DNA of 37,110 nucleotides, from assembly GCA_008632985.1 (NCBI GenBank), contig QPGO01000184.1, positions 124,001 through 161,110 of the forward strand. Direction: 5' to 3'. Positions 6,437-29,760 of the stretch are shown here, one piece after another. The position numbers were made by a program, and so were the translations under genes. Origin of the DNA: Psammoneis japonica. Its lineage: Eukaryota. The notes below the pieces were generated by a model. The model saw only the letters and a list, made by a program, of their open reading frames with translations. It searched no databases and was not told the origin of the DNA. How positions within the stretch are numbered: position 1 is the stretch's first letter; every line of letters starts with the position of its first letter.

Positions 6437-6649
6437 CTTTGTTGAAATGTACCAATACAGATTCTGATATCTATATTGAAATTCCAAAATCACGTAGAAT
6501 CACGTAGAATTGTACTAAACAAAACTACTGCCGACGGACGAAGGCAGGACACCAATGCTCTCGCCCACTTACTCGCTCGTGCTCTACTACATAAGCTCGC
6601 TATCAGTTCGTTCCAGGGTGATTCTCACAGCGTATGAGCAGAAAGCGGA

Positions 6650-8704: not shown

Positions 8705-8751
8705 TGATGGAGATCCCTGCATCTAAGTGGGAATGACGTGATCCACCAAGA
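8705..8751 (-). repeat. Copia 3' LTR (47 bp)
   Basis: TGATGGAGATCCCTGCATCTAAGTGGGAATGACGTGATCCACCAAGA; directly follows the G-rich PPT-like tract AGTGTGGGGGGG (minus strand, 8763-8752). Confidence 0.8.
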
Positions 8752-8759
8752 CCCCCCCA

Positions 8760-10866: not shown

Positions 10867-11021
10867 TGCAACAGCAGCGACAGGGCAGAGTCATGGCACA
10901 AACCACAAGCCGTTTGCGCGAACCATGGGAAAAGACCGGACAAGTGAACGGTCTTGATCAGTCACCGTGAGCATGCCATGTCCAGAATCCTGAAAATGTG
11001 AAGCATGGTGTTGGCTGCACT

Positions 11022-12039
11022 GCTCTTTTGCAACACACAGCTGCTGACAAGAGTCAACGCATCACGGCAATGTGTTGCAGCCTTTAAATGTCACAAAGGG
11101 CGTGACAAAAACAACCTTTTGTCTGCATGCACACTGCGTTGTGAATTCACAGCGGAATGGTTCATCGCAACCATCAGGCAGGAGGCCAGGGGTTCGAAAC
11201 CCTGAGTGGGAGTTGTCTGCAGCAACGTTGATCACTGTCGAATGCGCAAAACTCTGTGCAGTTCTGTGTGTTCCTTCGCACGTACCCACACTGTTCCACC
11301 AAAACTGTGCAGTGTCAGCACATGTTGGTAAAGAGCCGCATGGACGCGTGACACATGGGGAGGAGTGCAACACACAGCTGCTGATGAGAGCCAATGTGTC
11401 ACGGCGACGTGTTGCAGCCTTTGAATGTCACAAAGGGTGTGACAAAATGACCTTTTGTCTGCATGCATGCTGCGTGTTGACAAGTTGTTCGAGTCAATCA
11501 GCGCAACATGTTTGGCCAAAAATTCTCAGCAGACAGTTGAGACAAACAGAGATGCAGCAGTTGTTGCAAATTTGATGAGACCCTTTTTGATGAAAAGGGT
11601 CTGCGGGTTGACAGATTTGGCCTCGTGGTGGAGGAAAGGCTCCTGCACCCAATGGGGGTTCTTTGTGGCACTCTGAAAAGTGACAATGAGGAGATTTCTG
11701 AGGATGACTTGCTGGGAGACAAGAAAGAAATGTTGTTTGTGCATCAGGCAGGAGGCCAGGGGTTCGAAACCCTGAGTGGGAGTTGTCTGCAGCAACGTTG
11801 ATCACTGTCGAATGCGCAAAACTCTGTGCAGTTCTGTGTGTTCCTTCGTACGTACCCACACTGTTCCACCAAAACTGTGCAGTGTCAGCACATGTTGGTA
11901 AAGAGCCGCATGGACGCGTGACACATGGGGAGGAGTGCAACACACAGCTGCTGATGAGAGCCAATGTGTCACGGCGACGTGTTGCAGCCTTTAAATGTCA
12001 CAAAGGGCGTGACAAAAATGGCCTTTTGTCTGCATGCAT
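11022..12039. repeat. About 1-kb insertion in Copia pol with an internal ~302-bp duplication and a tRNA-like head
   Basis: 11172-11473 is nearly identical to 11742-12044; a third partial unit lies at about 11029-11137; GCTGCACT flanks both sides (11014-11021, 12040-12047). Confidence 0.75.
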
Positions 12040-12049
12040 GCTGCACTTT

Positions 12050-15000
12050 GGACGCTCTGCACAGATGATCAGGAGAAATCAGGGTTTCACCCAGCCCAGG
12101 GCAGTGAAACATCGGAGTGTCGCACTCGCGATTGTCCATGTCACAGATGGTGCACATGCCCACACCCAGCACTGTGAGTGTGGTGTTGGACGCGGATGCT
12201 GTGCTCGTGGGTTTGGGATTCGTAAATTGGTGGCAGCTGGCAAGCAGGTGTCATTGGGATGTTGCACTGCAGTTGGCTCCAGTGTCCGTCTGCCCGGATG
12301 CTTCCACTGGAGAGTCCGGAGCAAGTTTCCCAACACTGGCATGGTGAAAGGTGGGCAGCAACGCGGTTTCATGTTCCAGTGCCAGAGCCATGGAAAGCGC
12401 AATGGCAGGAGGAGTGACTGACTCCATGGACTCAAATTTTGTGGCAAAGTGGTGGAGAGCAGCCTGAGGATCTTTGGCAAAATCCTCGACCGCCGCAGCC
12501 CATGACTCGTCTGACAGGGAAAGCGAGTCATTGTCCGGCATCAAGTGCAATGTCATGGAATCCGAATCCGTGCTGGCAAGATCGGGAGGGCAGCCGGAAT
12601 GACTCCAGTCTGGGAGCTGGTCAAAGCAGGGGATGCTGGATGCGAAAGAGCAACAATTGAGGGAGGGATCGGAGAGTCAGCAGAAGGCAGAGACGATGAA
12701 TCATCCCAATCATCTGCCCCGCAGCCATTGGCAAGCCGTTCACCACACAAGGATGGAGCATGTGGCCGGCTCACAGAAAATCCGGAGGTGCGTTTGATTC
12801 AAACAGGAGGTCCGAGGCCGTTTGATCCATCACACAGTCGACAATGTCATTGGAGATGTCCGCCGCAAATGGATGGGCAGTCAGGCATGGTGTGTCCTTG
12901 CAACGTTTGTTGTGGGAATGCCATTTAGAGACAACAGACACAACTTTCTCTGTGTTGACCTTGACAAAATCCAACAGCAAAGCAGTGCGGGCCAGATTGG
13001 TGCAGTTGTGATGACTGTGGCTGTGCGCTCCACAAGCATCACAAATGAGATCCTTCCGGGGCTGGAGTGGGGTGTGCTGTCGATCCGGCAAAGCAGACTG
13101 GCGGCCGCGAGATGGTCGGCCGCGGAACGCACTCAAAGATCCCGTTGGGTTGGCATTCGCAGCAAGCCTGGGGTCAATCTGTGTGATGAGAGAGACCAGG
13201 TGCAGATCATGGGGCAAGGGAGTGGAGTCCCCAATCTCATTCAGATGGTGTTTGAGGAGGAGAGCCGGTTTGCACATGCTGGCCGGTGCAGCCTCCAGCA
13301 ATTTTAGAGACTTCTGGTGACGGGCTCCAGTCCCAGGTGGGACTTTTTGTGACATTTGCCCCGTGGAATTCTGCGTGCGAGCTCTGCAGTTCGCACTCTG
13401 GTCAATGGACACATTTGTCTTCGACATGAAACAAACGGCCAAGTTTGCAGTGCATGTGTCTCTGTTCGCACTCGAAGTTTTGGACAATGCGCCTGCCCCA
13501 CGCCATTCTTAAGACACTCGAGAATGGTGTAGAAGAAAAAAATGTTAAAAGTTGTTGAATGGATCGCCTGATGATTGCACTGTAAAATGATGCAAAATTT
13601 TGCCAAAATCACGTAGAAATGTGCGCGCGCGACATGCGACGCGATTCAAAAAACTGTCGATGTCACAGTTCAGCAGTGCGAGGTCCCACCCAGACCTGGA
13701 ACGTGTCTGGCATTCTGAGCAGGCCGGGGGTGCAGTGGGATCCATCTTGGCATGTGAGGCTTCAACGGCATTGAAGCAAATGGTGAATTCTGCCACAAGC
13801 TCACACAGGTCGCCCTTCCAGGATGGGTTGTTGACCACTTTGCCCATCAGGGGTGGAAGTCCAAGAGCCGCAAGGTGATTGAGCATCGCAAAACCATCCA
13901 TCGATGCTGTGTGTGTCTTTTTCCATCCGTCGTACAAATGGTGATCCAGAAGTGCGTCGTCCTGCACCAATTTGGAGCACACCTCAATCGCATTGCATTG
14001 ATGATGGGATGCACTCATTGACATCGGGTTTCAGAAGTCGGGCTTCTCACGAGTGAGAGTGCCCGAATCCTGGATGGGAACATGGGCCTGGGTGCACCGT
14101 GCACACACACCTTTGAGAAACAGTGCGATGTCGTTGGGTTCCATGGAATGGAGAAAGGGGCCAGGGGTCTCATGGAAGGTTTTGGAGTCATGGCATCGTT
14201 CCGATGAGGAGGCCGGTTTGCTCGTGGCAGCATGATTGGTGCCACCAACCGGGGCTGCTGGAGATGTTGTGGGATCGGGCAAGGTCACGAGACGATTGGC
14301 GATGTTGTCCAATGAAGAAGTGATGCGTCCCGTGTCCGTTGGTCCAGGATCCGGGGTGGTGGGTGATGAGGTTGCCGTCAGATTTGACAACTCCGATCAA
14401 CATTTGCCCAGTTCCTTCTGAACCCCAGCTGCTGCATGCCGAGCAGCTTCAGATGCATCATTGGCATGTTTGATCTTGCCGGCGTGCACCTGAGTGGCAT
14501 CCTGTTGCAAGGTCAGCTGAGCCTGGAGTCCGTCCAAATTGTCCTTCAGCACATCCGCCAGGTGGTCCTTTGTGACACATTGGTGTCCCATGGCCAGAGC
14601 AGACGAGGTGACCGCAGAAGAGGTCACAGTGGCATGTTCACAGTCTTCCAAGAGGGCCGCCATGGCATTGGCCACAGCAAAGCCATTTTGAATGATCTGC
14701 TCAGTGGCATTCTTGGTGGAGTCCAATCGGGCGAGTGTGATGTCCAGGTCATCCGTTTGAAGTTTAACATCATGCTCAACCCGGGCCTGGAACTTTTTGC
14801 GGGTTGCACCGATGTGGTCTCCCACAGCACGGATGGCTTCTGAAGTGGCTGATTCCAGTCGGCTGGTTTGTTCCACCACAAAAGACACCACATCATTGCA
14901 CGCAGTTGTCATTGTAGAACGGATGCGTTCGAGGATCACAGCTTCCACTGCTTCGTAAACCGGAACAATCTTCTGGTCAAGAGCTTCCAGGAATTGGGCA

Positions 15001-15737
15001 TCACGTGTCGCCAAAGCTTCGTTGGCCGCATCTCCAGCCAAAGCAATGGCTTCATCCGCAGTTGCTTTCAGCTGGGTCTGAACCTCAGCACGCAGGAGCT
15101 CGAAATCATGAGCATGTTTGAGGTCCGTGATGGCCGAGGCATGATTGTTCATGACCAAACGGAGTTTGCACAGCTCCCGCTTTAGCTTGGAAACCTCTTC
15201 CGCAGACACATCCAGTGCCCGCTTGTGTTCGTGGATGCAGGCAACAGCTGATGCAAGACCACGCTCACACGTCTTGAGAAGAGCCTGTGTCGATGTCAGA
15301 GGAGAGTGTGGAGAGTCGGGAGGTTCCTCAGGTGGCAGGGGAGCACCAGCAGGCGTGTGAGGCCATTCAGGAGGTGGGGTGGGCGGCAAGCGTGGAGGCA
15401 AGTTTGGGAGCACTGGCAGTGTTGGCTGCTCCAACACAGAGGCGGCGGTGTCCTTCTGTTCAGGACTCGCATCAGCTTCCGGAGCAGTGACATTCACTGT
15501 GAGTGTGGCTTCAGCCTCAATTGCCTCCTCTGCCGTGGGTGTGTCATGAGGCACCGAAGTGTCCTCTGCTGTTGCGTCGCCAGCAGATGCAAGGTTGGTC
15601 TCCACCGGAGGAGGAGAGGCTGGGGAGTTGTCGGCCAACACAGGCGACACAGCAGCCTGGAGTGACGACAGAGTGTTCTGCCAAGAGGATGCCGTTTTCG
15701 AACGGGCACTGTTGGCAGGCGCCATGGTGAGCGACAA
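12050..15737 (-). pseudogene. Copia gag-protease region, fragmented
   Basis: ORFs 14397-15737, 14031-14390, 13545-14024 and 12771-13487 (zinc-knuckle CDACGAHSHSHHNC), 12251-12556 (protease DTGAN) and LISPDHLC. Confidence 0.8.
13319..13707. mobile_element. Non-autonomous TIR element (MITE), copy 2, 389 bp, inserted in Copia gag
   Basis: Homologous end to end with 915-1304; TSD TGGT (13315-13318) / TGGC (13708-13711); excision restores the gag frame SE[Y]QKSLKLL. Confidence 0.88.
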
Positions 15738-15974
15738 TGAAAATAAAAATCAATGTCGTTCCACCATGCAGGGGCAGCATGTGTCGGATCTCCATGGCAT
15801 GGGCAACGGCAATGGCGTGAATCAGTGTCCGACATGCGGACATTGTTGTCGTCAATGGAGCGGCAAAGTTTAAGATGCAAACGCTCTCTGCCGGTGTTGT
15901 TGACAACAAAACGAGAGGAAAATGTGTTGTCGGCAGTGGCAGAGGAGCCTTGCTTGCACGTCTGTGCAAGCGTT

Positions 15975-15984
15975 GCTCACAACC
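15975..15984 (-). promoter_or_regulatory. Copia primer-binding site
   Basis: GGTTGTGAGC immediately after the 5' LTR CA end; equals the Copia-type GGTTATGRGC PBS with one TA->TG change. Confidence 0.7.
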
Positions 15985-16031
15985 TGATGGAGATCCCTGT
16001 GTCCAAGCAGGAATGACATGAACCACTGAGA
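15985..16031 (-). repeat. Copia 5' LTR (47 bp)
   Basis: TGATGGAGATCCCTGTGTCCAAGCAGGAATGACATGAACCACTGAGA aligns without gaps to 8705-8751. Confidence 0.8.
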
Positions 16032-16098
16032 ATTTTTGCTCTCAATTCTCTCACAATCTTTTCTTTGACCTGGAAAGCAACACAGTCAAGACATCACC

Positions 16099-16930
16099 AT
16101 GATTGCCTTCATGAAGAACCTTGTTGTCATCTCCCTTGGCATTGCTGCCGGTGCCATGAGCGCTGGTCCCTTTGCCCGCCCGCTTTCGGCTGTCTTTGAC
16201 GCAACGGTGCAAGGTGCATCGATTGCTGAGAAAGCAAGTCAAGATGTGCTTCGCAGTGCTTTGGCTGCGACCACAATTTGTGCGCCGATCGAAAGCCATG
16301 ACGACTCCTTCATCCGCCTCCAGAACATCCTGTGCAACACCACACCCACGAGCATGCCCATTGAAGCTCAAATCAGGTCGAGCATTCATTGTGTGTCTTT
16401 TTTGACCACAAGGACTTCAACTCCACCATTCTTCACAACGCCATTCGAAACTGCACGCCTGCGGACGACATGCCAGTTGATGCTCTGAAAGCCTCGAGCT
16501 CTGTTTGCCAGCCCTCCTTCGACCTGTCCTTCAAGCACGAAATCAATTTGTCCGGCTGTTTTCAAAATGTCCTTCGAGAGAAAGCACCTGCCACAATGAT
16601 TGCCATCCAGACATTTTCCGAGACCACGTTGAGGATTCACACTGCATTCCATGAGTTCTCTTTGAGGACCAAGACTGTTCGTGAAACCGCTTCAAGCTGG
16701 CACAAGATCATCCACAACTCCTTGAAGACCATTGTCACAAGGGCATGAGCTCAGGCTTGCATTTGGAAAGAATGTATGATGATGCCGTTTCAGATGCCAA
16801 GATTGTTGTCAGAATGTTGGTGGACGAAAATTCAAGAAACAACAAATGGCTTTGTCACACTTGTTCAAACTCAGGCTTGCATTCTGCATGAAAAATGTGG
16901 GGCGATGCCGATTCGGACGCCAAAATTGTT
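16099..16930 (+). pseudogene. Decayed unknown gene with a hydrophobic N-terminus; part is repeated at 1-66
   Basis: Consecutive ORFs 16099-16488, 16389-16748 and 16776-16973; 16861-16926 aligns with 1-66. Confidence 0.35.
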
Positions 16931-17080
16931 CTGTTTGCCCACGAAGAGTGGGACGACCACATGGCTCTGCTGAGTGCGTAGATTCTCCACCTGCAGGGGT
17001 GGCGGGTCTGGAGCCGTTGCCGGCTCCAGATGAAAAGGCTCTCGGCAGTCGGTCCCCGAACCGATGCCGCTGCTGAATTC

Positions 17081-19342
17081 TCACTCGGTTTTCCAATGCT
17101 CCGTGGCCCACTCAAGGAGCGCAGCCTGCTCTGCATCGGTGTGGCGTCCGTGATGGTCATTGCAGGAACCACAACAGGTGTTGCATTGCCCCTCAATGTG
17201 GCAGGGGAGGCAACGGGCAGCACCATTTGAGTCAATGGGCAAGGCAATGTTGTTGCGAGCGCACCGCTGCTTGACATCACGAGAGTGCACGTTTGGGCGG
17301 TCACGAACGGCAGAAAAATGGTCATTGCAGTTTTCATTGCAAACAATGGAATTGTCGCCCAGAGTCTGAGCTTGCCCAGCAGGTGAGGGTGCAGGTGCTT
17401 GGGCCGATCCCGGATGCTGAAGCGGTTTCGTCGGGCCGCATGTTGGTGGGCCTTGAGGTCGAACGGCAATCGGCAGCAGACGCTGCCAATTCATGGTGCC
17501 CTTGGCCGCCTCGTAGATGACATTCTTGGGTGTGACTGGAACAGGATTGTGCATGGATTCTTGATCTTTAAACCAATGATGGATTTCGATCTGGACACAG
17601 CGCTGGAAATCTGCAGGCAGCGCAGGGTGATGCGTCATCTGCAGTGCAAGATCGTTGGCACAAATGTCCAAGGAGCGGTGAAGGTCCATGAGGTGATGGA
17701 CGACCGGGTGGGTGGCGCCCAAGGCCGCAGACAGGACCACCTGGAGTCCATCAAGTGAATGTTGGACCACCTGCATGGTGGTGGCAACCTTCGCATCGTC
17801 CGGTGCTTCAAGGACCACAGTGTCGGACAGGGAGGACGTGCCCATTCCACCGTGAATCTGGCGACACATGGCCACACAGTGTGCCATCTGTTCCGCCTGT
17901 TGAGGAGTGGTGAGTCCGAAAATGAAAGGATTGACACCTTGGGTGAGGTCATCTTTATTGTGTCTGGCCAATGAGAGTTGAACGAGCTTGGTGACCATGC
18001 TGACTGAGATTGGAACCTCAAAGCACACGTTTTGTGCCTGGCGTTGCTCATCCACAGCATTCTGCACTGTGGCGATCCATCCAGTCTTGGGTGCAGTGGC
18101 CAAACGTTGCCACAAGGGCAGAAGCTGATTCTCTTGATGCACCTGGCACAATCTCATGAGTTTTGTGACACCGTGTTCTCCACAGAACTGCGTCCAAGCG
18201 CTGTTGCCATTGTTCCGCGGTGAGGTTGTCAACAGCGCGAATGACTGGCTGGAACTGCGGGACACCGGCGCAGCCAGTGCCTTGAATCCAGGAAGGTCGT
18301 GATGCACACGTTGGTCAAAAAAACGAATCAGGTGCTCGTTGGGCGGTTGCGGGAGAGTGGGCCACTCCGTGCAAACCGCCGACTCCTCGCCATTGGCTTG
18401 CATTGCGACACATGCAACGCGAAGAAAATCCAGAAGTGCCCGGCAATTGGCCACTTTGTTTGCTGTGTCAAGCGCTCCATGTGCGCAAGTGCACGCCTCC
18501 TCAGGGGTCAACGGAGGCTCTGGCAGGAGCAGCTTGACCAAATCGAAAGGTGCGGACATGGTTCCTCTCGTCCGTGCCTCCTCCGAGTCTGCGTCGTGCG
18601 CTGATGCAGCCGGGTGTGACCCATCGGGCACAGCGGCAATGTGGGTTGCTGGTGCCGCATCAGCAGGAACCCAAGTCCCTGGTGCGGCCAACGCAAAATG
18701 TGCATCCGGGAAAGTTGCAACGGTGTGCTGTCCTCGGCGTGGGTCGCCGACGATCGCGAACTTCCGACCATCCCATGGCTGGGGTGGCCCTGCGACCGTG
18801 GTTAGATGCTGAGCAATGCAATGGCAGATTTGGATGCGGCCCGGATCTGCCGCGTTTGCATTGGGGTCGCGGCAATGGAGTGCCATGGCCATGGGCACAT
18901 TGTGCGTCGAGGCAGCCGCGACTCGTTCCGCAAGTGCGTTCGCCCCGTGCCTTGCATTGCCATTTACAACTGCCACAAAATCCAACATCGGATCGGCGCA
19001 TTCACCGCCGTGCGGATCATTGTTGGTCGTGGAGTGGCATGCCTGGCATGTGTCGATGACCGGCATCGGCAAGGGCACCATCGGTGGCTGTTGGGGCGGT
19101 GCGGCGACTGGCTGCACTGGTGGGGGTGGTGCTCCAGCTCCTCCTGGAACCGGGTGAACTGGTGGGGCTGGTTGGGCTGCCCCTGGTTGCGGTGCAACGT
19201 GTGCATGAGGTGCCGTGGCTTGTGCCGGTTGACCTCCCGCATTCGGGTTCGCCACTGGTGGCGGTCCTTGTCCTGCTCCTGGTGGTGGCAGCACGTTTGC
19301 CACAATGAACACAGTGTCCCTGCGAGCGAACACAACAAACAA
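17081..19342 (-). mobile_element. Gag-like ORF1 of a probable tyrosine-recombinase (DIRS/Ngaro-like) retroelement; downstream pol absent
   Basis: 753-aa ORF with a Pro/Ala-rich N-terminus and C-terminal CCCH-like finger CLP[C]HIEGQCNTCCGSCNDH; 1 Tyr in total; family assignment is from recall only. Confidence 0.5.
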
Positions 19343-19518
19343 TGTGGCTGAAGGTGTCCTCAGCCTCGAGACAGCGATTAAAACTGTCTGGTTGTTGCTT
19401 TGCTCTTCGGAAGAATGAGAGGTGCAACGGGGAAAACAATCGTCCCGAGGTCAGAGGGTCATTTTCAACGGTTTTTCTGTGGGGTGACGATGACCAACGG
19501 TCACAGGCCCCCCTCTCG

Positions 19519-19682
19519 TGCAAGGTCTAACGAGACAAAGACTTTTTAGTGATGACAAAATTGTGAGTGAAAGACCGAGGTAACGAGGGTCGCTTTCAGC
19601 GAAGCCCGTTACAACGGCTTCCGTTACATCTAATAGATTCATCAATGCCATGCATCAGAAAAATAGGGTGCGAGACACTGCA
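19519..19682 (-). repeat. Gypsy 3' LTR (164 bp)
   Basis: Direct repeat of 24745-24906, next to the PPT. Confidence 0.95.
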
Positions 19683-19885
19683 CTCTTCCCTTCCATGATT
19701 CGAGTGTCGAGAATCATGCGGGACTCAAAAATTTTCAAATTCCAATGGATGAGGATAGAAGGGAAACCCAAATGTTGGGGAGAAAACCCTTGACCTCAGG
19801 TGCGATGCGGTACGACGCGACGAACATTCAATCGTTCTGTCACATGAGGTGCACGTTGGACCGCAATCGTGCCGTTGGCGTGTGC

Positions 19886-21273
19886 TCAAACGATGGGATG
19901 TGGACCGTGAGCTCGTGGTTCGAGCTTGGTGGGATCGACAGACTTGAGTAGAACGTGTCCACCAACTTGAAAATCGCAGGATCGGCGTTCAGCGTTGGCT
20001 CGACGGAGATTCGCATTAACAATCGCTTGTCGGTGTTCTTGAATGGCAGCAAGATCGGCTAGGACCGGCAAGTCAAGAATCACATCACGTTGAAAAACCA
20101 TGGCACCGGGTGAAATCTTGAGAGCACGAGAAACCGCACATCGCATTGCATGCATGGCGGTTGCCAATGCATTGTCCACCAGTTGATTGGCCTGCTCAAC
20201 ATTCTGTGGAGGATGAACATGAAGCAAAGTGCGCAAGATGTTTCCAACAGTTTGATGCATGCGCTCGCATGCCGCATTGGCTTGTGGATTTCGCGACGTG
20301 GTCGGAGCGTCTTCCACTCCCGCTTGTTGCAATGGCAATTGGAAGTCCTCTCCAATGAATTCTCCACCATTGTCATGGATGCAACGGTCAGGACGAGGAT
20401 AACGAGACAACCAACAATTTTCAAATTGTTGGGCAATGTGAGACGAGGTTTTGTTTTCGATGCGAATGAGTTCAGTCACATTTGAAACGGCATCAATGCA
20501 AGTCAAAGCGTTGAATTCGATTTCATGGTTTTGAATTTCAATCTTCCAGGGACCGATGAGATCAACCGCAACTTCCGTCCATGGCAACAAAGGCGCTTCT
20601 CGTTCAGGCAGGTCCCCACATCCAGGGCCCAAAGTTTTCAAACGTTGACAATCAGCACAATGAAATCCTTCACAGGATTGACGAAGGGCAGGATGATGGA
20701 AATGTGCACCAACAGTGGAATGCATTCGGTGCACTCCTGCATGTCCCAAATTCTGTGATGCCATCGCATGACATCATGCAGCAATGCCGTTGGAACACAA
20801 ATTTTCCACGCAGTCGGAGGATCATTCGGTTGAGCACGACAACAAATTACAGGACGCTGATTCACACATTCCACCACGAAGCGTTCTGGATGTTGTTGTC
20901 GCATGTTGTTCAGCTCCACGTCGATGAATTGGTGTTCTTGAATTCGTTGCACAGTTGCAGGGTTTTGCATTTCCTTGAGAGAAGGACAGTTCAAAAATGA
21001 TTCACACAATTCGGGGTCATCCACGACAGAAGAGTAAAATGGAGATGGTTCTTCACGACGACAGGAAAAATGAGACACACGGTTTTGGTCGTCCAGTTCT
21101 TCTTCATGCGGCAGCATGGCAGGGTCGATCGCCTTAAAATCAATCAGTTTGCCCTTGTCAGGAGCACACTTCCCTTCCGCAGGAGGGTCCACACGCGGCA
21201 ATCTTGAAAAACAATCCGCCAAGAGGTTGTCTTTGCCATCAACGCATTCGAAAGTTGGGGCAAAATCTTCCAA
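19886..21273 (-). pseudogene. Gypsy pol: end of RNase H and integrase, frameshifted
   Basis: GKDNLLADCFSRL, HHCC remnant HAGVHRM...CEGFHCADCQ, VAVDLIGPW, IHDNGGEF, NPQANAACERMH, LEPRAHGPH (GPY/F motif). Confidence 0.92.
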
Positions 21274-21294
21274 GAAGAGTCGCCACCTAAGAAC

Positions 21295-23277
21295 TCATTG
21301 AGAATTGAGCGCACGAAAGGTGAGATTTTTATGATCTGTAAAAACAGTGCAGTCAGCTCTGAATGACATGCTCCGAAATTCTTTGAAACACATTGCCACC
21401 GCCAACAATTCCTTTTCAATCGTAGAGCAGTTCTGTCGTGCTGCGCTGAGTTTTTGGGACCAGCAAGCCACTGGTTTCCCGTCTTGCACAATTGCGGCTC
21501 CCATCTGACAGTCCGAAGAGTCAGCACAAATGTGGAATGGTTTGTTGTGATCCGGGCAGACCCAAAGGGTGTCGTCCAGCATCAAGGTTTTCACATCCTC
21601 AAAGGCTCGTTGACATTCAGTGGTCCATTCCAACTTGCTCTTGCCTGTCAACTTCGTGAGTGGAGCGAGCACGTGTGAGCGACGAGGCCACATGTTGCGA
21701 CAATGAGTTGCCGCACCGACAAACGATCGTAGTTGCGTCACAGTTTTAGGTGGTTGCATTCGTAGCACCGCTTCCACTTTCTTCTTCCACGGTCGGACTC
21801 CTGCAGGCGTGAGCCAATGGCCCAAAAAATCCGTCTCTTGGACACACCATTCGCACTTGAGTGGGTTAATTTTCAGGTTGTTCTCTTCTAGTCTGGACAA
21901 CAGCTCATCGAGTCGATGCACATGAGTGTCAAACGAATCATCAAATTGAGCAATGTCATCGATGTAAGTTTCAACATCGACTCCGTTTGCCACTTTTTCA
22001 ATGATGGCTTGAGCAACATCGGGAGAGGGTTTCAAACCCATGGCCAATCGACAGCATCGAAATTTTCCAAACGGAGTGACGATGGCACACAAATCCTTGG
22101 ATTCTTCGTCAAGTTTGACATGACAATAAAACACAGTGAGGTCCAATTTGGTCAAGCACTTGTGTCCCGAGCATCGGTGAATGACGTCTTGAATGATCGG
22201 CAGAGGACAGACCTTTCGCTTGAGCACCTTGTTCAACTCTCGAAAATCGGATGCCCATCGAACTCGTCCATCCTTTTTGGGAGTTGCAAAAGTTCCGGCT
22301 GCCCATTCAGTTGGTCCCACTGGTTCCAGCACGCCAATGTCACACAAATGCTGTGGTTCTTTCTTAAAAACGGCTTCATCCCTCTTGGGCACCTCATGAG
22401 CCTTAGAATGGAAGGGGACAGCATCAGGATCAACTTCCAAGTGAACAGTCTCATGCGGACATTTGCCAAGCGTTCCATCAAAGAGGGTTTCATGCTTTTC
22501 AAGCACTGCCTGTAGCTCATCACGTTGTTCTTGAGCCAAGTGAGTTTGAGCTTGCGCCACTTTTGCGGATGATGCTTTCTCGCATTTGGCGTCCATCATA
22601 AAAGATTGTCCGAAGGCTTCCTCATCGTCTTTGTCCTCTCCGTTGTCTTCCAGTGCATCCAACCAATTCTGAACTGAGTTCCAATGATTGGATTGCTTCA
22701 TTAGGATCGACGTTCCCAACCACTTTGTTGTTCCAAATCGAAAATCAAGCACGATTCCGGCCTCAGACAAAAAGTCTTGTCCCAAAATTGTGTCACACTT
22801 GCATGGGGTGTCAAAAACTTGAGCCGCAATGCTGTCGACTTGTTTTGACTTGTCAAATTCTGGCAATGTCAAGTCCTTCATAACAACGCATCGGGAGGAT
22901 TCATGTCATCCGGCTGCCGTCTGAAAGCTCAGCCGTCCTTCATCGTTCATGGTCGGATTCGCTCCCTTCGGCAAAACTCAAGAATGAACAAGAGTGTTGG
23001 CACCTCCTGAATCCAATGACACGCGTGACACTCGCTTGCTCTCTTGATTTTGAATGGCACGCGCCGCCATCAACGTCGTTGGCACCACATTCAATGGTTC
23101 AGGAGTCGCAGTTTTAGGGGTTGGTGCAGCGCACTCCAAAACGCCGCCCAATTTTTCTTCATTCACAGTGTAAGATTCCATCAGGTCTCCCACATTGTCA
23201 TCAACATTAAAACATGCATTTTCTTCACAATCAAACAAAACATAAAAAGATTGAGCGACACGCTCTGACTCGGGCAC
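21295..23277 (-). pseudogene. Gypsy pol: protease, RT and RNase H
   Basis: LDSGG, ILGQDFL, PKKDGRVRWASDFRELN, TYIDD, FLGHWLT, EKELLA, VFTDHKNL; 2 Tyr in the 528-aa ORF. Confidence 0.95.
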
Positions 23278-23289
23278 TTCCGTCCCTTG

Positions 23290-24715
23290 TCAATTGCGCC
23301 AACTTCGTTGGCCTTGATGGGTGCGACCGTTCTGATCGTGTCCATTTCCACCTCGCATCTCACGAGGCCCTCCTTGATCAAAATGGTGCGACTCCATTTG
23401 CCAGCCACCAGGAGGAGCTGCTCCAGCCGGATTTCCACAGCCTTGGGCATCACCGTTGGCTTGGGTGCCGTTTTGATTTTGACAATGGGATCCATTCCCT
23501 TGAGAATTCTGGGAGTCATTGCAATTGCCGTAACCTCGGCCTCCACATCCTCCTTGATTGCCACAATTGCCACATCCTCGACCTTGGAAGTCACCACAAC
23601 CACCTCGACCTTGGGGTCCTCCACCTTGGCAGTTTCCTCGGCCTCCACCATGGCCTCCGCCACGACCGCCACGGTCGGACCTCGGCCGACAGTTTTGGCT
23701 TTCTGGATTCAAAATGCAATCCTTCCACTTGTGGTCATGATTCGTGTGCACCGGGCATCTAGATTCTGGATCCGTTCCACCACTGTTGCCACGAGAGCGC
23801 CTTGAAGCTTGAGACGAAGCACCATTGCCTTTCCTCTTCTTGTCCTGCTTCTTGTTGCTGCTCTTGTCAGCAAAAGATTTCTCGTTGTTCACACAACTGA
23901 TGATCTCAGCGAGAGCATCCTTCGCTGTCGCTCATCCTGCTCGAGCACACATCTCACGCCACGGACGAGGGAAGCTGTCGAATGTCATCTTTTTCTTCTG
24001 AGCTTCGTTGACTTGAGGAGCATTTCCCGGAAGTTTGTTGGAGTGCCGAATCAAGGTTTCCATGCGATCCGCGTGCGCCTGTGCTTCAGATTTGAGTGGT
24101 TTTTTCAAAGTTGGCAAATGTTCAATCATCGCATCACGCGCTTCATTGTCACAATAAGACAAGTAAAAACGATTGATTTCCTGATCAAAACGCTCGACAG
24201 TTTTATCGGCATCGTCAATTGCATTGGTCAAATTCGCCCATTTGTCCTCTGCCGCATCCGCAAGCACTTCCTCGAAATTTTCGAACAACTCCTCGCCAGT
24301 GGCACACTCCAGTTTCACAGCAATTTTACGAAAACGATCCTCAACGAATGACAATGCTTCAATGCCATGAGTGCCATCAAAACGCGGACACTTTTTTGTA
24401 CGAGTGCTGCCGTCATCATGCGATTGGGTCAATTTCACGTCCTCCAAGTCAGAATGCTCAAATTTGGCTTCACAGCTGATGCAAGGCTCCTTCAACGATT
24501 CACTCATCATGAAAAAGGGAATGCAATTGTTCAACAGTCCTTTCCAGGGACTCTACCTTTGACTCCAAATGATGCACTCGGCTCGCCAAATTCTGCTCGT
24601 GTCGTTTGCGCTGTTGCACTTGTTTCTGGTGCTCAATGGCCCAAACTGCTGCTCTTGCGCGCAGTTCTCTTTTCTCACGTTTAGTCAATTTGTTTGTATT
24701 GTTCCTAGTCTCCAT
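23290..24715 (-). pseudogene. Gypsy gag, frameshifted
   Basis: ORFs 24500-24715, 23932-24534 and 23290-23892 with CPVHTNHDHKWKDCILNP knuckle and an RGG/Gly-rich tail. Confidence 0.8.
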
Positions 24716-24744
24716 CCAGTTCTTTGAATCGACTGTAATTACAG

Positions 24745-24906
24745 TGCAAGGTCTAACGAGATAAAGACTTTAGTGATAACAAAATTGTGAGCGTAAGACC
24801 GAGGTAACGAGGGTCGCTTTCAGCGAAGCCCGTTACAACGGCTTCCGTTATATCTAATAGATTCATTAATACTATATATCAGAAAAATAGGGTGCGAGAC
24901 ACTGCA
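24745..24906 (-). repeat. Gypsy 5' LTR (162 bp)
   Basis: Direct repeat of 19519-19682; retains TA dinucleotides lost from the other LTR. Confidence 0.95.
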
Positions 24907-25970
24907 TCTCGTCCGTTGGACTTTTCGAGGACAGTGATTCTACGCGATTTTGGAATTTCAATGCGATGTTAGAATCTGCATTAGTAGATTACGATAAGAC
25001 TGCGAGCTGCGATGAATGACAATGGTTTCGATTTCCTTTGAGTGTCATTACTTCATGATCAAAAGAAATCCTCAGAATACCATCTTACTAGTTTGGTATG
25101 TTCTCTAGCCAGAGTATCAAGTACAAAGATCAAGCCAGACATTGGCGTCACCTCGTTGGAAGAGTATTGTATCCGCTGAGATGCTGTTGGAGCAAACAAA
25201 CAATAGTATTGTGGGTGCAATTTGAATCACCGTGGCAGCTGGTGTCCATGTCCTCTGTCTTCGAAGGACGATATTTGCAACAACTCGAGTCGGTCCTTGT
25301 GTAAGGAATTGAGAACGTTTTTCATCTCAAAGAAAAAAAGAAAATCAAAAGCATGACGGTATGTCGCGGATAATGTGTTGGATCACAATGCGATAACCAT
25401 TGAGAATTGTGTGACTTCATTTCGTTCATTCTCGCATTTGCTCAACCATACGTATCACTCTTTCATTCCTTACGTTTATCGGAATACCGTCGGAAATCAT
25501 CAAACCCATTCGTGATATACACTTGTACAGTGTGGCACATGTAGTAGAGCCTTGTCCCAATCCTCGAGAGGTGGCGATAATTTGATTGGTGGAAGGGCGA
25601 AATTACAATGGTGCGCAAATATCCAAGAGAGATATTAAACAAGCGGCGGATTAGCTTCGTTGCCTCTCAAAAACGATGAATGTTCAGACAGAGCTAGAGT
25701 AAGTAGTCCCCACTGAGTTTAACTCTAAATAGATAATACCGCTTCGAAGGAATAACGTTGCTTGTTTTGTTTTGCTCGGTTGCTCGGACGTGCTCTTACA
25801 GTGATCAACCCGTGGCGTGGAACGGCGGGTGGGGCTTGAAAACGTTTCGACAAGCACACACTGTACTAGTCGAAGAAAAGAAAAATGAGATATGTTCAGC
25901 ACATGCTGGCCAAGTTCTTCCTAACCGGAAAAGACTACCCGCTGCGCAGACACATTCAATCTAGATTCCC

Positions 25971-28146
25971 CTACTTGTAATGAGGGCTCTTGGAGCATGT
26001 GTTCTTGCGGCACTTGACACCGGCTCCCACGAATTTGCCTCCGCGCGTGTAGCATTTGGACTGCTTCAACATCTTGCACTTGCCATTCTTCCAGCAACAG
26101 GCGCCGGGCTTGGAGGCGCAGGTCTTCTTCTTACACTTGGTACCGAATCCGACAAACTTTCCATGCTTCTTCCACACAAGTAGTCTTCTTCAACACTGCA
26201 CAATTTCCATTTGGCAAGCAGCAGGCACCATAAGCGGCAGGGCACGATTTCTTGCTACACTTGACACCTTCACCACCGAAATGCCCACCCTTCTTTTTGC
26301 ACTTCTTCTCAGGGAGAGTCCTGCACTGCCTTTTCTTAATCAGACAACACGCACCGGGCTTGCCGCGCGGCCCAGCGGGACAGCGGTAGTCCTTCGTGCA
26401 CTCGGTACCTACACCGATGAACTTGCCATACTTCTTTCTGCACACACCAGGCATGAGGTTGCGACAAAGACCACTCTCGAAGCAACAGGCTCCAATTGGT
26501 TTCTTGGCTGGAGTAGGGGTTGGGCTCGGAGTCTTGAGTGGGCAAACCACATTCTTACAGGAAGTACCAGGACCCAAGAAGAAATTTCCGTTGGTAGCGC
26601 ATGTCCTTTGAGACCAGAAACGGCACTCACCCGATTTGAGGCAGCAAGCTCCAGGAGACGTCCTTGTAGGACAAATGCCAGGCTTGCATTTGACACCAAG
26701 TCCAAGGAATACACCCGTGTCACAGTTTTCTTCGGTGGTTTGCTCGCATTCATCCTTCTCGACATCGCAGCACGCTCCAGTCGGAGGAGGAGTAACGGTA
26801 GGTTTCATGGTTGGCTTAGCGGTGGTTGGAGCTGGGGTTGGCGGTTTGGTCGGGCACAAGCCGGGTTCACACGGAACACCAAATCCCTTGAACTCGCCGC
26901 TTTGGTTGGTACACTTCTTCTTGAAGGTGATCTTGCATCCATTCTCCAAACAACAAGCTCCCGTTATGGGACACTCAGTGTCCTTGCATTGTTGGTTAGG
27001 TTTTGTAAATGTTCCACCGCCCAAAGCACATGTCTCCTGAGAAAGGAACTTGCATCCGTCAAACAAGGTGCAGCAAGCGCCAGGGCTCTGATTGACTTGT
27101 GTCGGTGGCGGTGTAGGAGCATTGGTAGGAGCCGGGGTCGTTGGAGCGGCGGTTGGGGGGCGGGGTAGTTGGAGACATTGTAGGGCTCTCGGTAGGAGAT
27201 ATTGTAGGAGGTAAAGTCGGGCAATTTGCACTTTCACACGTTATGCCATTGCCTTGCCAGAGCCCGAGATTCGAAAGACATTCTTCTTCGGTTCCCTTAA
27301 AGCACAACCTATCAGAGCCCGCAAGTGGGCAGCAAGCACCCTTCCGTAGTACAGTCGGTGATGGTGTAGGAGCAGGTGTAGGCGATGGCGTTGGACTAGG
27401 GGTAGGAGATGGAGTTGGCGATGGCGTCGGCGCGGGTGTTGGACTTGGAGTCGGAGACGGGGTCGGGGCGGGTGTTGGACTCGGCGTAGGAAGAGGGGTC
27501 GGAGACGGCGTCGGCGCGGGAGTTGGACTGGGGGTTGGAGATGGCGTCGGAGACGGGGTCGGTGCGGGTGTAGGACTTGGTGTGGGAGAGGGAGTCGGAG
27601 ACGGCGTCGGCGCGGGTGTTGGACTCGGGGTGGGGGAAGGAGTTGGTGAGGGCGTTGGACTGGGGGTAGGACTCGGAGTTGGTGCTGGCGTTGGTGCTGG
27701 CGTCGGTGCTGGAGTTAAGCACTGATCGGCAGAACACTGAGAACCAGTTCCTTGGTAAGCGCCTTCACAGTTAGAAGGGCGTTGAATAACGCAACTTCCA
27801 TCTATCAAACAGCAAGCACCAGTTGGGCAAATGCCAGGTAGATCAATGCCTCCAGGGATGCAATTCTCCCCGATGCCCTGAAAATCGCCCTCACACAGTT
27901 CCTCTTCATCTTCGAAGCATTCGCCCAAGCTATCACAACACGCACCCTGCCATTTTTGAAAGTGAGGAACAAAGACTGTAAGTGGAGTGTGGTGGGGAAA
28001 GGAGAATCCACATTGAAAGTGCAGTACGACTACAGTAAAGTGACTTAAACAACGATTTTGCACACGCACCGACGCAACATCACTTTGCCACCTTGCGGTG
28101 CCACAGCGGCAAGAAGCAGGAGTACGCCAGCGCTGAAGAGCTTCAT
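25971..28146 (-). CDS. Secreted Cys-rich protein with 11 GACC repeats and a TP(S/A)P stalk; probable 5' intron; two apparent frameshifts
   Basis: ATG at 28146 gives the signal-like peptide [23 protein letters not shown]-x-C-x-C-x-G-x-G-x-C-x-C units continue across ORFs 27059-28360, 26131-27237 and 25971-26177; frame changes near 27155 and 26175; exon boundaries uncertain. Confidence 0.75.
27352..27714 (-). repeat. Coding 12-bp tandem repeat, about 30 x TP(S/A)P
   Basis: Direct translation; synonymous positions vary between units. Confidence 0.92.
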
Positions 28147-29319
28147 TTTTGCGACCAATTCCTTTTCCTTCAACAACACAAAATGGCTGGAGTCTTTTGA
28201 AATGCGGATGCCTACAGATAGATGAGAGTTGCAGGGGAAAATGCAAGGAACGAGAATTTAGCACTGTGTAGAGAAAAATGTTTTTTGGCAACGTACACTG
28301 CACGACTGCATGCCGTAAACAGAAAAGAGGACATTTTAGGATATAATCAGATCTCTTCAAAAATGTCCAGATACATTTAATTAATTAAATGGGCATGTTT
28401 ACTGTTGGACATGTCTAACTTAAGTGTTATCAGCGAGCGACAATTGAAAACATAACTACTAGCTACTGTACCCTGCCGCACTTTCAAGACGAAACGAGAA
28501 CAGCGCGACAACATGGCCGCAAGCGCAATCATCTTTGAAACACACTTTCCTCTTGATGTCAACAGACAGACTGGGGCTGTGGCCACTTCCATTGGAATGA
28601 ATGGAGACCTGGACATTTAAAAAAAGGGGGGGACAGTGTGCAGGCGCACAGAAATGACAAAATTCCGATTGAAAAACAGCCGTCGCCACCACGCCACGGC
28701 CGTTGTGCCCGTCTCATCTGCGGCGGTCTGCAACGATGTTGTTGCTGCAGAACACATCAGAACCCCATTTCATCTGCTGTGGGCATGAAAGGCTGCTAAT
28801 CACTGTTGTGTCACCTTCTTGAGAAGGATGGAATGTCCGTTTGATGACTCATGTGCGCACCGTTTTGCGGCACAGAGCGACGGTGTGTGGTGGAGAGACG
28901 CAGCATTTGAGCATTGACGCCAATTGGCTCATCTCGGAAATGCAGCAATCTGATCAGTTGACCCATGCTGTTGGGAAATGGTGTGCAGTCTGTGCAGCTG
29001 GTGGATTTGTGGACAGTGCAGCACCCGAAGCTCCCGTCATTGTTCGTGTGAGTTGTGCTTCTTGTCGTCAATCAAAACAGCGCAAGTGCACATGTGAAAA
29101 ATTGTTGAAATCTTTTGTTGATGCTGTGGTGCCTCTGCCTGCACTGGCACAGAGAACAAGGACAAAAAATGGCTTGTTGACTTGAAGCTGCATGGCACCC
29201 AAGTTGCGCGTTTGATCCAGCCAAATGTGCTGACAGCGGTTGGAGCCTGTGCACTGCTGCACTGCCATCAATCAAGGCAGTTGCACCTTTTTCATCTGGC
29301 AATGAGGGTGCCCCTGTGT

Positions 29320-29760
29320 GCTGCTTTTGCTGGCAGCAGCTGGAGCTTTTTTGCTGCTGGGCCCCAGCAGTTGTGGCAGTGGGAGCATGTGTGCTGCCAG
29401 CGCTGGTGGTGGTGGGAGCCTGTGCCAGCACAGTGACACCACTGGCGCTGGAGGTGGTTGGATCCTTTTGCTGCTGGCACTGGTGGCAACAGGTGCCTGT
29501 GTGCTGCTGCTGTGGCACTTGCAGTGGTGGGAGCCTGTGCGGCTGCTGCCAGCACTGGTGGTGGTTGGAGCCCGTGTGCTGCTGGCAACAGGGGTGGTTG
29601 GATCCTTTTGTCCAGTGGCCGTGCCTGCCTCTGGTGCATGCTGCTGGCTTTGGTGGTGGTTGGAGCATTTCTGCTGCTGGCACTGGTGGCAGTGTGGGAG
29701 CCTGGTCACTGCTGGCACTGGTGGCCGTGAACCTGCATGGCTGCCAGCACTGGGCAAGTT
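29320..29760. repeat. Degenerate minisatellite-like tract (CTGCTGGCACTGGTGG / GGGAGCCTG motifs)
   Basis: Recurrent short motifs, no TA dinucleotides, ORFs in all frames. Confidence 0.6.

What the first reader, a model, noticed from the sequence alone, without database searches (positions are those of the whole stretch)
19519..24906. Gypsy LTR pair gives direction and timing: 8 of 10 substitutions are TA losses, all in one LTR
By manual alignment the LTRs differ by 10 substitutions and a 2-bp indel. Five are TA->CA and three are TA->TG, for example CATTAATACTATATATC (24865-24880 region) versus CATCAATGCCATGCATC (19640-19656 region). In each case the LTR beside the gene island keeps TA and the LTR deep in the TE block has lost it. 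LTRs are identical at integration (established), so the changes arose in chromosomal DNA afterwards. The asymmetry suggests targeting by chromatin position rather than by pairing of the two repeats (inference).
Basis: partly seen in the sequence, partly recalled or inferred. Interest (0 to 1): 0.85.

Follow-up and report, generated by a model that had tools for sequence, protein, structure and literature searches.

The report
TA-erasing hypermutation recorded by diatom LTRs
A jumping gene in a diatom genome shows that the host DNA around it is being rewritten at the two-letter step TA (into CA or TG), a repeat-scrambling process so far reported only once, in an unrelated alga.

Summary
The two LTRs (19519-19682; 24745-24906) of a Ty3/gypsy element with a 5-bp target duplication differ by 10 substitutions and a 2-bp indel. 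Eight substitutions are TA in the right LTR against CA (5) or TG (3) in the left.

The direction, TA loss, is supported but not seen directly at those eight sites. In the element's own pol, 16 of 18 conserved tyrosines are now Cys or His. Of 38 single-transition replacements, 25 are TA>TG or TA>CA. All 78 related elements from other samples have ordinary TA content. Fungal RIP, which runs the opposite way, is rejected.

The LTR pair is one reading of a window-wide mosaic. Thirty of 37 1-kb windows have TA at or below 0.43 of expectation, most at 0.00-0.2, with CA/TG excess and edges sharp to about 100 bp. One edge lies inside the element, sparing its 5' LTR and part of the leader.

The same TpA-only A:T>G:C hypermutation was reported in 2026 in Bigelowiella natans. 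My searches found nothing for diatoms.

The 'chromatin position' reading is only partly supported. The element body is more depleted than the left LTR, and depletion tapers at both ends.

The parts
19514..19518 (.). Target-site duplication TCTCG, left copy
   Evidence: Identical 5-mer at 24907-24911
19519..19682 (-). Left LTR (164 nt). It is the element's 3' LTR. It has 8 TA left, having lost 8 of 16 ancestral TA and 1 of 10 CpG, and it gained a 2-bp TT insertion.
   Evidence: The TT insertion is private: 3 of 3 family contigs lack it.
19683..19694 (-). Polypurine tract (GGAAGGGAAGAG on the minus strand) abutting the 3' LTR
   Evidence: Sequence read directly. It fixes the element's orientation.
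20285..20542 (-). Integrase core (rve), in a frame shifted relative to RT
   Evidence: Pfam PF00665, E=3.7e-6, 27.5 bits, below the curated cut-off of 32.6; ORF 19886-20773
21361..21627 (-). RNase H domain (RT_RNaseH_2)
   Evidence: Pfam PF17919, E=2.3e-22
21814..22281 (-). Reverse transcriptase domain (RVT_1). Most conserved Tyr are replaced by Cys or His.
   Evidence: Pfam PF00078, E=1.9e-19
20638..24552 (-). gag-pol reading frame broken by six in-frame stops, all TGA (23932, 23290, 22978, 22906, 21295, 20638). TA rho is 0.12 over the internal stretch 19683-24600, of which this frame is part.
24555..24681 (.). Edge of the TA-depleted domain, inside the element's 5' leader. To the left there are 0-3 TA per 200 bp (10-16 expected); to the right, 10-18 per 200 bp.
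24745..24906 (-). Right LTR (162 nt). It is the element's 5' LTR. It has 17 TA, including a TATATA stretch. Its one private change, A>T at 24794, made a new TA.
   Evidence: At 24794, 12 of 12 family contigs read A.
24907..24911 (.). Target-site duplication TCTCG, right copy
8430..24600 (.). TA-depleted domain holding the left LTR and the element body (TA rho 0.03-0.24 per kb, CA/TG 1.35-1.82). It includes a copia-type RT remnant at 8857-10890(-).
24682..28469 (.). TA-normal zone (rho 0.42-0.64). It holds the right LTR, an intergenic stretch, and Cys-rich and Pro/Thr-repeat ORFs at 26134-28384(-) that match no family.

Best explanation
The window comes from a diatom-like genome. In that genome, integrated repeats undergo a DNA-level hypermutation that converts TpA into TpG or CpA. 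This is an A:T>G:C transition at the A of TpA on either strand.

A Ty3/gypsy element inserted at the edge of an already TA-depleted repeat block. Afterwards its left LTR (its 3' LTR) lost 8 of 16 TA. The same LTR lost 1 of 10 CpG by ordinary methyl-CpG decay. Its right LTR (its 5' LTR) and the adjoining leader lost no TA. The LTR pair is therefore an in-situ record of the process.

Shown:
- TpA specificity.
- Direction: TA loss is shown for the element body. For the left LTR it is inferred from the body, the domain map and the relatives.
- Both strands are hit.
- The LTR differences arose after integration.
- The process is limited to domains with sharp edges.
- It prefers ATA/TAT contexts.
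- In the same DNA it runs faster than CpG decay.

Inferred:
- The chemistry. Enzymatic deamination of adenine to hypoxanthine in DNA is the leading idea, as proposed for Bigelowiella natans.
- The targeting signal: silent chromatin, methylation, small RNA or repeat recognition.
- A genome-defence role.
For: 1. LTR alignment: 8 of 10 substitutions are TA(right) against CA/TG(left), 5 one way and 3 the other, so both strands are hit. TSD TCTCG.
2. Direction from the element's pol against 60 homologues: Tyr columns 18, now C 12, H 4, Y 2. Cys 3/3, His 7/8, Trp 8/9 and Gln 7/9 are kept.
3. Codon test: 78 mismatches at 300 conserved columns. Of these, 38 are single transitions: TA>TG 17, TA>CA 8, CpG decay 6, other 7.
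4. Independent non-TE check: a coatomer-beta fragment at 5507-6092(-) in a depleted zone has H or C at 4 of 4 Tyr of its best homologue.
5. The 78 related gypsy loci from metagenomes have TA rho 0.45-1.08. The internal region here has 0.12, with TG+CA raised.
6. Window mosaic: 30 of 37 1-kb windows have TA rho <=0.43. Twenty also have CA/TG >=1.52, the published B. natans cut-offs. Edges are sharp at 6136, ~8424, ~24555-24681, ~28469, 33009, 33889 and 36769.
7. Context: surviving TA per kb, depleted over normal DNA, is ATAT 0.00, ATAC 0.01, ATAG 0.08, up to TTAA 0.28. Seven of the 8 lost LTR sites contain ATA/TAT, against 3 of the 8 kept.
8. The spared right end is as repetitive in the genome as the body (bin depth 3530 against about 60 for the unique flank). 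Lack of copies does not explain the sparing.
9. Precedent: mutation-accumulation lines of B. natans show TpA>TpG/CpA-only hypermutation of integrated viral DNA (bioRxiv 10.64898/2026.01.13.699255; abstract, passages and Discussion read).
Against: - The family state at the eight LTR sites was not seen. Only 40 of 675 variable places were printed. Direction at those sites is therefore inferred from the body, the domain map and the relatives, not observed.
- The body is more depleted than the left LTR (8 survivors against 1.9 expected, P=6e-5). Part of the body's loss may predate this integration, or rates differ along the element.
- There is a sense-strand bias (TA>TG 17 against TA>CA 8; TG 98/kb against CA 78/kb where relatives have 65 and 77). 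This hints at a transcription- or RNA-linked component that a plain DNA-domain model does not predict.
- At four doubly different places in the read-laying output, all other contigs carry the opposite product. Some losses may be inherited within subfamilies rather than arising copy by copy. Such doublets can also come from CpG.
- No enzyme, no chromatin data and no genome were available.
- The 78 relatives are the best-matching, most intact copies, so they are biased against mutated ones.
Confidence: 0.8

Rival explanations
1. Fungal-type RIP or a RIP-like process. C>T at CpA (and G>A at TpG) created TA in the right LTR, and the left LTR keeps the original state.
For: The eight differences are exactly the dinucleotide pairs that RIP produces, and an LTR pair alone cannot give polarity. 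The right LTR bin is slightly TA-rich (18 observed, 17 expected) and CA/TG-poor (17 against 24 expected).
Against: The organism is diatom-like, not an ascomycete. In the same element conserved Tyr became Cys or His (16 of 18). Cys, His, Gln and Trp were not turned into Tyr or stops. All six in-frame stops are TGA, none TAA or TAG. The repeats are TA-poor (rho 0.03-0.2), the opposite of RIPped DNA.
Confidence: 0.03
2. Editing before integration. A-to-I editing of the element's RNA (ADAR/ADAT-like, 5' U preference), or deamination of its cDNA during reverse transcription, produced the TA loss. The DNA in the chromosome is not being mutated.
For: There is a sense-strand excess of TA>TG (17 against 8; TG>CA on the sense strand). 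The body is more depleted than the LTR. Some shared states exist among other copies.
Against: Both LTRs are copied from one template, so RNA editing cannot make them differ. The LTR differences fall on both strands (5 and 3). A non-retroelement sequence (the coatomer fragment) and whole multi-element blocks are equally depleted, with sharp edges that cut through this element. This rival may be a contributor to the body's excess (my estimate about 0.3), not the sole cause.
Confidence: 0.05
3. The TA-specific process is real, but the asymmetry between the LTRs is set by the element, not by neighbouring chromatin. Either the whole repeat unit is recognised and mutation tapers toward its edges, or the element's own 5' LTR/leader (promoter region) is protected.
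For: TA density rises toward both ends. On the left: body about 7/kb, 19683-20100 about 12/kb, left LTR 49/kb. On the right: 24100-24600 12/kb, leader 34/kb, right LTR 105/kb. The left LTR is less depleted than the body. The spared LTR is the 5' LTR and carries a TATATA stretch.
Against: The two ends differ strongly (50% loss against 0%), although both LTRs are equally repeated. The more mutated end abuts old depleted DNA and the spared end abuts TA-normal DNA, as a neighbourhood effect predicts. The edge falls in the middle of the transcribed leader, not at a functional landmark.
Confidence: 0.3
4. Artefact. Either systematic base-calling errors at a modified TpA in silent DNA, or a chimeric assembly or ectopic gene conversion that pasted an LTR from another, more mutated copy.
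For: The window differs from both short-contig haplotypes by small indels in the right flank, as long-read assemblies do. The family is highly repeated, so conversion or mis-joins are conceivable.
Against: Contigs built independently from a public run hold 43% of the stretch's 31-mers. Of the pieces laid, 350 are >=99% alike, and one bridges the right LTR into the flank with 0 other letters. The matching TSD argues against a chimera. Stops, a frameshift and CpG decay show genuine decay. Conversion would only move the same mutation process to another copy.
Confidence: 0.05

Closest known systems
TpA-restricted hypermutation of integrated viral DNA in Bigelowiella natans (Mettrop et al., bioRxiv 10.64898/2026.01.13.699255; abstract, passages and Discussion read)
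   Same: Almost exclusively A>G and T>C, all at TpA (giving TpG or CpA depending on strand). Confined to particular foreign or repeat regions. [quoted passage not shown] Twenty of 37 windows here pass that paper's two cut-offs.
   Different: A different lineage (stramenopile diatom against rhizarian chlorarachniophyte). Here the evidence is historical (LTR pair, protein polarity), not from mutation-accumulation lines. Depletion is far deeper (rho 0.00-0.2, against 0.45 for their NCLDV region). The main targets are LTR retrotransposons. New here are the sharp edges, the ATA/TAT preference and the comparison with CpG decay. That preprint has 0 occurrences of 'diatom'.
Repeat-induced point mutation (RIP) of ascomycete fungi
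   Same: A dinucleotide-specific transition process that riddles repeated DNA with mutations and inactivates transposons. It leaves a compositional mosaic of mutated repeat blocks and normal gene islands.
   Different: The opposite direction and base: RIP is C:G>T:A at CpA and makes TA-rich, AT-rich DNA. Here A:T>G:C at TpA makes TA-free, CA/TG-rich DNA. RIP creates TAA/TAG stops, whereas here they are erased (6 of 6 stops are TGA). RIP hits both copies of a duplication, whereas here one LTR of a pair is untouched.
ADAR/ADAT A-to-I editing (5' U preference) and APOBEC-type editing of retroelements
   Same: A>G outcome with T/U before the edited A. Deaminase chemistry as a defence against selfish elements.
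   Different: Those act on RNA or on cDNA before integration, and so give one-strand changes shared by both LTRs. Here the LTRs differ, both strands are hit, and a non-retroelement fragment is affected.
Methyl-CpG deamination in silenced transposons
   Same: Also yields TG/CA, and it is present in the same DNA: 1 of 10 CpG lost in the left LTR, 13 of the 40 listed private changes are CpG>TpG/CpA, and CpG rho is 0.11-0.20 at 29-36 kb.
   Different: It targets CpG, not TpA. In the left LTR, TpA loss (8 of 16) outruns CpG loss (1 of 10). Most TA-depleted blocks keep CpG rho at 0.56-0.93.

Membership tests
Ty3/gypsy LTR retrotransposon | Two direct LTRs ending TG...CA, flanked by a short target-site duplication | tested here: met
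   LTRs of 164 and 162 nt, TGCAAGGT...ACTGCA, TSD TCTCG
Ty3/gypsy LTR retrotransposon | pol domain order RT - RNase H - integrase, with a polypurine tract before the 3' LTR | tested here: met
   On the minus strand: RVT_1 at 21814-22281, RT_RNaseH_2 at 21361-27, rve at 20285-20542 (rve is below Pfam's cut-off); PPT at 19683-94
TpA-directed A:T>G:C hypermutation (B. natans type) | Changes are A>G / T>C transitions restricted to TpA, giving TpG or CpA | tested here: met
   8 of 10 LTR substitutions; 0 of 62 other A/T bases changed to G/C; 25 of 38 single-transition replacements in pol
TpA-directed A:T>G:C hypermutation (B. natans type) | Clustered windows with TpA depletion coupled to CpA+TpG enrichment, in foreign or repeat DNA | tested here: met
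   20 of 37 1-kb windows pass rho TA <=0.43 and rho CA/TG >=1.52; 30 of 37 pass the TA cut-off alone; RT, integrase and copia remnants lie inside them
TpA-directed A:T>G:C hypermutation (B. natans type) | Elevated de novo mutation rate seen directly in mutation-accumulation lines | not testable with these tools
   No genome, lines or raw reads were available. Only the post-integration LTR divergence is available.
TpA-directed A:T>G:C hypermutation (B. natans type) | Candidate DNA adenine deaminase (ADAT2/3-like) in the genome | not testable with these tools
   No whole genome is held for this window
Fungal RIP | C:G>T:A transitions at CpA/TpG, producing TA excess and premature TAA/TAG stops | tested here: not met
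   TA rho 0.03-0.2 in repeats; Tyr>Cys/His rather than the reverse; all stops TGA
Pre-integration RNA/cDNA editing of retroelements (ADAR/APOBEC type) | Strand-specific changes that are identical in both LTRs | tested here: not met
   The LTRs differ, with 5 changes on one strand and 3 on the other. A partial sense-strand bias in the body remains unexplained.

The most novel reading that the evidence does not exclude
Diatoms possess an enzymatic, domain-targeted DNA editing defence, a mirror image of RIP. It deaminates adenine at TpA in silenced repeat DNA in situ. Its reach is set by chromatin-state boundaries sharp to about 100 bp, so LTR pairs that straddle a boundary record both its rate and its limits. 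Together with Bigelowiella, this would point to an old system, possibly shared across the SAR supergroup.
Probability: 0.35. Interest if true: 0.85.

Novelty: new member of a known kind. Interest (0 to 1): 0.72.

Why it matters
TpA-directed A:T>G:C hypermutation of foreign DNA has one report so far, a 2026 preprint on a chlorarachniophyte, and its enzyme and targeting are unknown.

Finding the same signature in a diatom would show the process is not a curiosity of one alga. The signature here is much deeper, it sits on ordinary LTR retrotransposons, and one LTR pair shows that it acts on chromosomal DNA after integration. Diatoms are also a group with genetic tools and chromatin maps, so the enzyme and the targeting signal could be found.

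There are practical consequences:
- LTR-divergence dating is wrong in such genomes unless TpA sites are masked. Here 8 of 10 differences come from the process.
- Erasure of TAA/TAG stops creates long false ORFs, for example 789 aa at 17084-19450 with no family.
- Profile searches miss transposon proteins because Tyr is systematically turned into Cys or His.

Tried and rejected
- Whole genome: none is held, so the genome-wide LTR-pair survey and the deaminase search could not be run.
- Family state at the eight LTR sites: laying public contigs printed only 40 of 675 variable places. None of the eight sites was among them. It did settle the indel (left-private) and the A/T transversion (right-private).
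- The same output shows one contig joining 19511 to 24907, an apparent empty target site. The right flank is covered by two contigs of about 30x each. This hints that the insertion may be on one haplotype only. The short side of the joint is 28 nt, however, and a paralogue of the flanking repeat is not excluded, so I draw no conclusion.
- RNA: no RNA holder was listed.
- A tRNA gene or other RNA as a boundary element next to the right LTR: ARAGORN found 0 and Rfam found 0.
- Pfam on 86 stop-to-stop ORFs of at least 110 aa, taken from 109 such ORFs: only Adaptin_N, a weak RVT_2 and a chance zinc-finger hit. The depleted blocks other than the gypsy and copia remnants remain unclassified.
- ESM Atlas on the Cys-rich ORF beside the element: best score 0.84, no lead. 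'Gene island' therefore rests on intact ORFs and on RRP36 at 6638-7666, not on a known family next to the element.
- Earlier notes of this scan: nothing relevant.
- CA-versus-TG double differences between repeat copies (11 in the 914/13318 pair): rejected as polarity evidence, because an ancestral CG gives the same pattern.
- Literature searches for the process in diatoms found nothing: 'diatom / transposable elements / hypermutation', 'TpA depletion / transposable elements', 'diatom / TpA / retrotransposon', 'TpA dinucleotides / hypermutation / TpG', 'TpA / TpG / CpA / transposable elements / A-to-G', 'diatom / repeat-induced point mutation / dinucleotide', 'diatom / TA dinucleotide'. One search failed on term syntax.
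- Supplements of the bioRxiv preprint (its Table S2 with contexts) are closed, so its flanking-base preference could not be compared with mine.

Full report
**What is there**

Positions 19519-24906 are a 5.4-kb Ty3/gypsy LTR retrotransposon lying on the minus strand.
- Its LTRs are 19519-19682 (164 nt) and 24745-24906 (162 nt). Both run TGCAAGGT...ACTGCA, and the insertion is flanked by the 5-bp duplication TCTCG.
- A polypurine tract (GGAAGGGAAGAG on the minus strand) abuts the left LTR.
- Pfam finds RVT_1, RT_RNaseH_2 and, more weakly, rve in that order on the minus strand.
- The left LTR is therefore the element's 3' LTR and the right LTR its 5' LTR.
- The gag-pol frame carries six in-frame stops, all TGA, and a frameshift before the integrase.

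The host is diatom-like. All named best hits are diatoms, both for the neighbouring RRP36 gene (6638-7666) and for pol: Mayamaea, Epithemia, Nitzschia, Cyclotella, Pseudictyota, Cylindrotheca, Chaetoceros.

**The observation**

MAFFT gives 10 substitutions and a 2-bp indel between the LTRs.
- Five are CA(left)/TA(right) and three are TG(left)/TA(right).
- One is T(left)/C(right) at a CpG.
- One is A(left)/T(right) (same classes).

This is far from chance. The probability of 8 or more of 10 substitutions landing on the 34 TA bases is 1e-4, or 5e-6 if transitions are also required. Eight A:T>G:C changes fall on TpA and none on the 62 other A/T bases (P=9e-5).

Public contigs of the same organism settle the two odd differences and the indel.
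- At 24794, 12 of 12 family contigs read A, so the transversion is private to the right LTR.
- Three of three contigs lack the extra TT, so the insertion is private to the left LTR.
- The T/C difference is a CpG>TpG change in the left LTR.

The tally is 9 substitutions and the indel on the left, and 1 substitution on the right.

**Direction**

An LTR pair cannot polarise its own differences, and CA/TG against TA is also the hallmark of fungal RIP run the other way. Four lines of evidence say TA was lost.

1. Tyrosine columns. I aligned the RT-RNase H ORF to 60 homologues. Of the 18 columns where at least 60% of them have Tyr, this copy has Cys in 12, His in 4 and Tyr in 2. Meanwhile Cys (3/3), His (7/8), Trp (8/9) and Gln (7/9) are kept. 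RIP would do the reverse and create stops.
2. Codon test. Of 78 mismatches at 300 conserved columns, 38 are explained by one transition. These are TA>TG 17, TA>CA 8, CpG decay 6 and other 7.
3. A non-transposon sequence. A fragment of a coatomer-beta gene at 5507-6092(-) lies in another depleted zone. It has His or Cys at 4 of 4 Tyr of its best homologue.
4. Relatives. Seventy-eight related gypsy loci from metagenomes have TA observed/expected of 0.45-1.08. This element's interior has 0.12, with TG and CA raised. These relatives are the best-matching, most intact copies, so they are a biased sample. They do show that the family is not natively TA-poor.

The read-laying output printed 40 of 675 variable places and none of the eight. 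No genome is held.

**The wider pattern**

The LTR pair is one reading of a mosaic that fills the window.
- In 30 of 37 1-kb windows TA is at or below 0.43 of expectation, and mostly at 0.00-0.2. CA/TG stands at 1.35-2.06.
- TA-normal zones are 6136-8424 (with the intact RRP36 gene), 24682-28469, 33009-33889 and 36769 to the end.
- Every edge is sharp to roughly 100 bp.
- AT, AC and GT dinucleotides are near expectation, so this is not a general AT>GC drift.
- Survival of TA depends on its neighbours. The depleted-over-normal ratio is ATAT 0.00, ATAC 0.01, ATAG 0.08, ATAA 0.10, rising to CTAG 0.26 and TTAA 0.28. The LTR agrees: 7 of the 8 lost sites contain ATA/TAT, against 3 of the 8 kept.
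- CpG decay runs alongside but more slowly. In the left LTR 1 of 10 CpG was lost against 8 of 16 TpA. Most depleted blocks keep CpG at 0.56-0.93, and only 29-33 kb and 34-36.7 kb are also CpG-poor, at 0.11-0.20.

**Where the edge falls, and what it says about targeting**

One edge lies inside the element.
- From 19800 to about 24550 there are 0-3 TA per 200 bp, against 10-16 expected.
- After 24681 the density is normal.
- Thus the 5' LTR and the adjoining 60-190 bp of leader are spared. Yet they are as repeated in the genome as the body (bin depth 3530 against about 60 for the unique flank).
- The DNA left of the insertion is depleted right up to the target site, and the DNA right of it is normal from the target site on. 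The element therefore landed on a pre-existing edge.

Three facts keep me from accepting 'chromatin position' as shown.
- The left LTR kept 8 of 16 TA, where the body's context-specific survival predicts 1.9 (P=6e-5).
- TA density rises toward both ends of the element.
- The spared end is the element's own promoter end.

An element-centred target with edge effects, or protection of the 5' LTR, fits as well. A modest sense-strand bias (TA>TG 17 against TA>CA 8; TG 98 against CA 78 per kb where relatives have 65 against 77) suggests a transcription- or RNA-linked component, or some loss inherited from an already mutated template.

**Mechanism**

Shown:
- a TpA-specific A:T>G:C process;
- it acts on both strands;
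- it acts on chromosomal DNA after integration, at least for the LTR;
- it is confined to repeat-rich domains;
- it is faster than CpG decay there, and very roughly 30-80 times faster per base than other substitutions in this LTR pair. That figure is my arithmetic from the counts, and it rests on a single background substitution.

Inferred:
- The lesion is deaminated adenine (hypoxanthine pairs with C), produced by a DNA-acting deaminase recruited to silenced DNA. This is the hypothesis put forward for Bigelowiella natans.
- Oxidised thymine is a chemical alternative. 5-hydroxymethyl/formyl-uracil was reported at TA and TC in a dinoflagellate, according to a passage in PMC11071213. Because TpA is its own complement, sequence alone cannot separate the two.

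**Comparison with what is known**

The closest known case is the 2026 preprint on B. natans.
- Its mutation-accumulation lines show about 1000-fold hypermutation of an integrated giant virus and a virophage.
- Almost all changes are A>G or T>C, and all are at TpA.

The signature here is the same, and 20 of 37 windows pass that paper's cut-offs. The lineage, the depth of depletion, the retrotransposon targets, the sharp edges, the context preference and the LTR 'clock' are new. Seven full-text searches found no report of this in diatoms. The B. natans preprint does not mention diatoms.

It is not RIP, because direction, base and product are opposite. It is not pre-integration ADAR/APOBEC-type editing, because the LTRs differ, both strands are hit and a non-retroelement is affected.

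**Verdict**

The direction and the post-integration timing are supported. The 'chromatin position' inference is plausible but open. I file this as a new member of a very recently described kind of genome-wide editing of foreign DNA, in a group where it can be dissected experimentally.

Noticed in passing
window 5507-6092 (-): A fragment of a coatomer beta-subunit gene, covering residues about 282-493 of a 927-aa homologue (47% identity). It sits at the edge of a TA-depleted zone and has His or Cys at all 4 Tyr of the homologue. It is a host-gene fragment treated like a repeat; the functional copy must lie elsewhere.
   Followed up: partly
window 33009-33889: A 0.9-kb AT-rich island (GC 0.41) with normal TA (rho 0.79) and normal CpG (1.03) and no long ORF. 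It is embedded in DNA that is almost free of both TA and CpG. It could be a young insertion or a protected regulatory or non-coding locus.
   Followed up: no
window 29001-33000 and 34001-36700: Blocks depleted in both TA (rho 0.00-0.16) and CpG (0.11-0.43, and 0.11-0.20 up to 36 kb), with CA/TG at 1.7-2.06 of expectation. These are presumably the oldest repeats, where both decay processes are near saturation.
   Followed up: no
window 17084-19450 (-) and many others: Very long stop-free frames on both strands (for example 789 aa with no Pfam match), because TAA and TAG have been erased. Only TGA remains as a stop. Gene finders would over-call ORFs in such DNA.
   Followed up: partly
window 6446-6503 and 24934-24990 (inverted): A 58-nt repeat (84% identity) containing ATCRCGTAGAATCAC lies just inside two TA-normal zones near their edges. 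A similar ATCACGTAGAAA also occurs in the 914-1300 / 13318-13703 repeat family. No tRNA or Rfam match.
   Followed up: partly
window 19511/24907 and 25029-25200: One public contig joins 19511 to 24907, an apparent empty target site. The right flank is covered by two contigs of about 30x each that differ by small indels. The insertion may be present on only one haplotype.
   Followed up: partly
window 26134-28384 (-): An ORF with four or more Cys-rich 'GACC...C...CP' repeats (26134-26808), followed upstream by about 20 copies of a 12-nt repeat (27318-27754) that would encode a Pro/Thr-rich tract. No Pfam or Atlas match. It is the nearest candidate gene to the spared LTR.
   Followed up: partly
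window 11172-11473 and 11742-12044: A 303-nt direct duplication, 98% identical, inside the depleted domain. Two of its four substitutions are again TA against CA/TG, both with TA in the second copy.
   Followed up: partly
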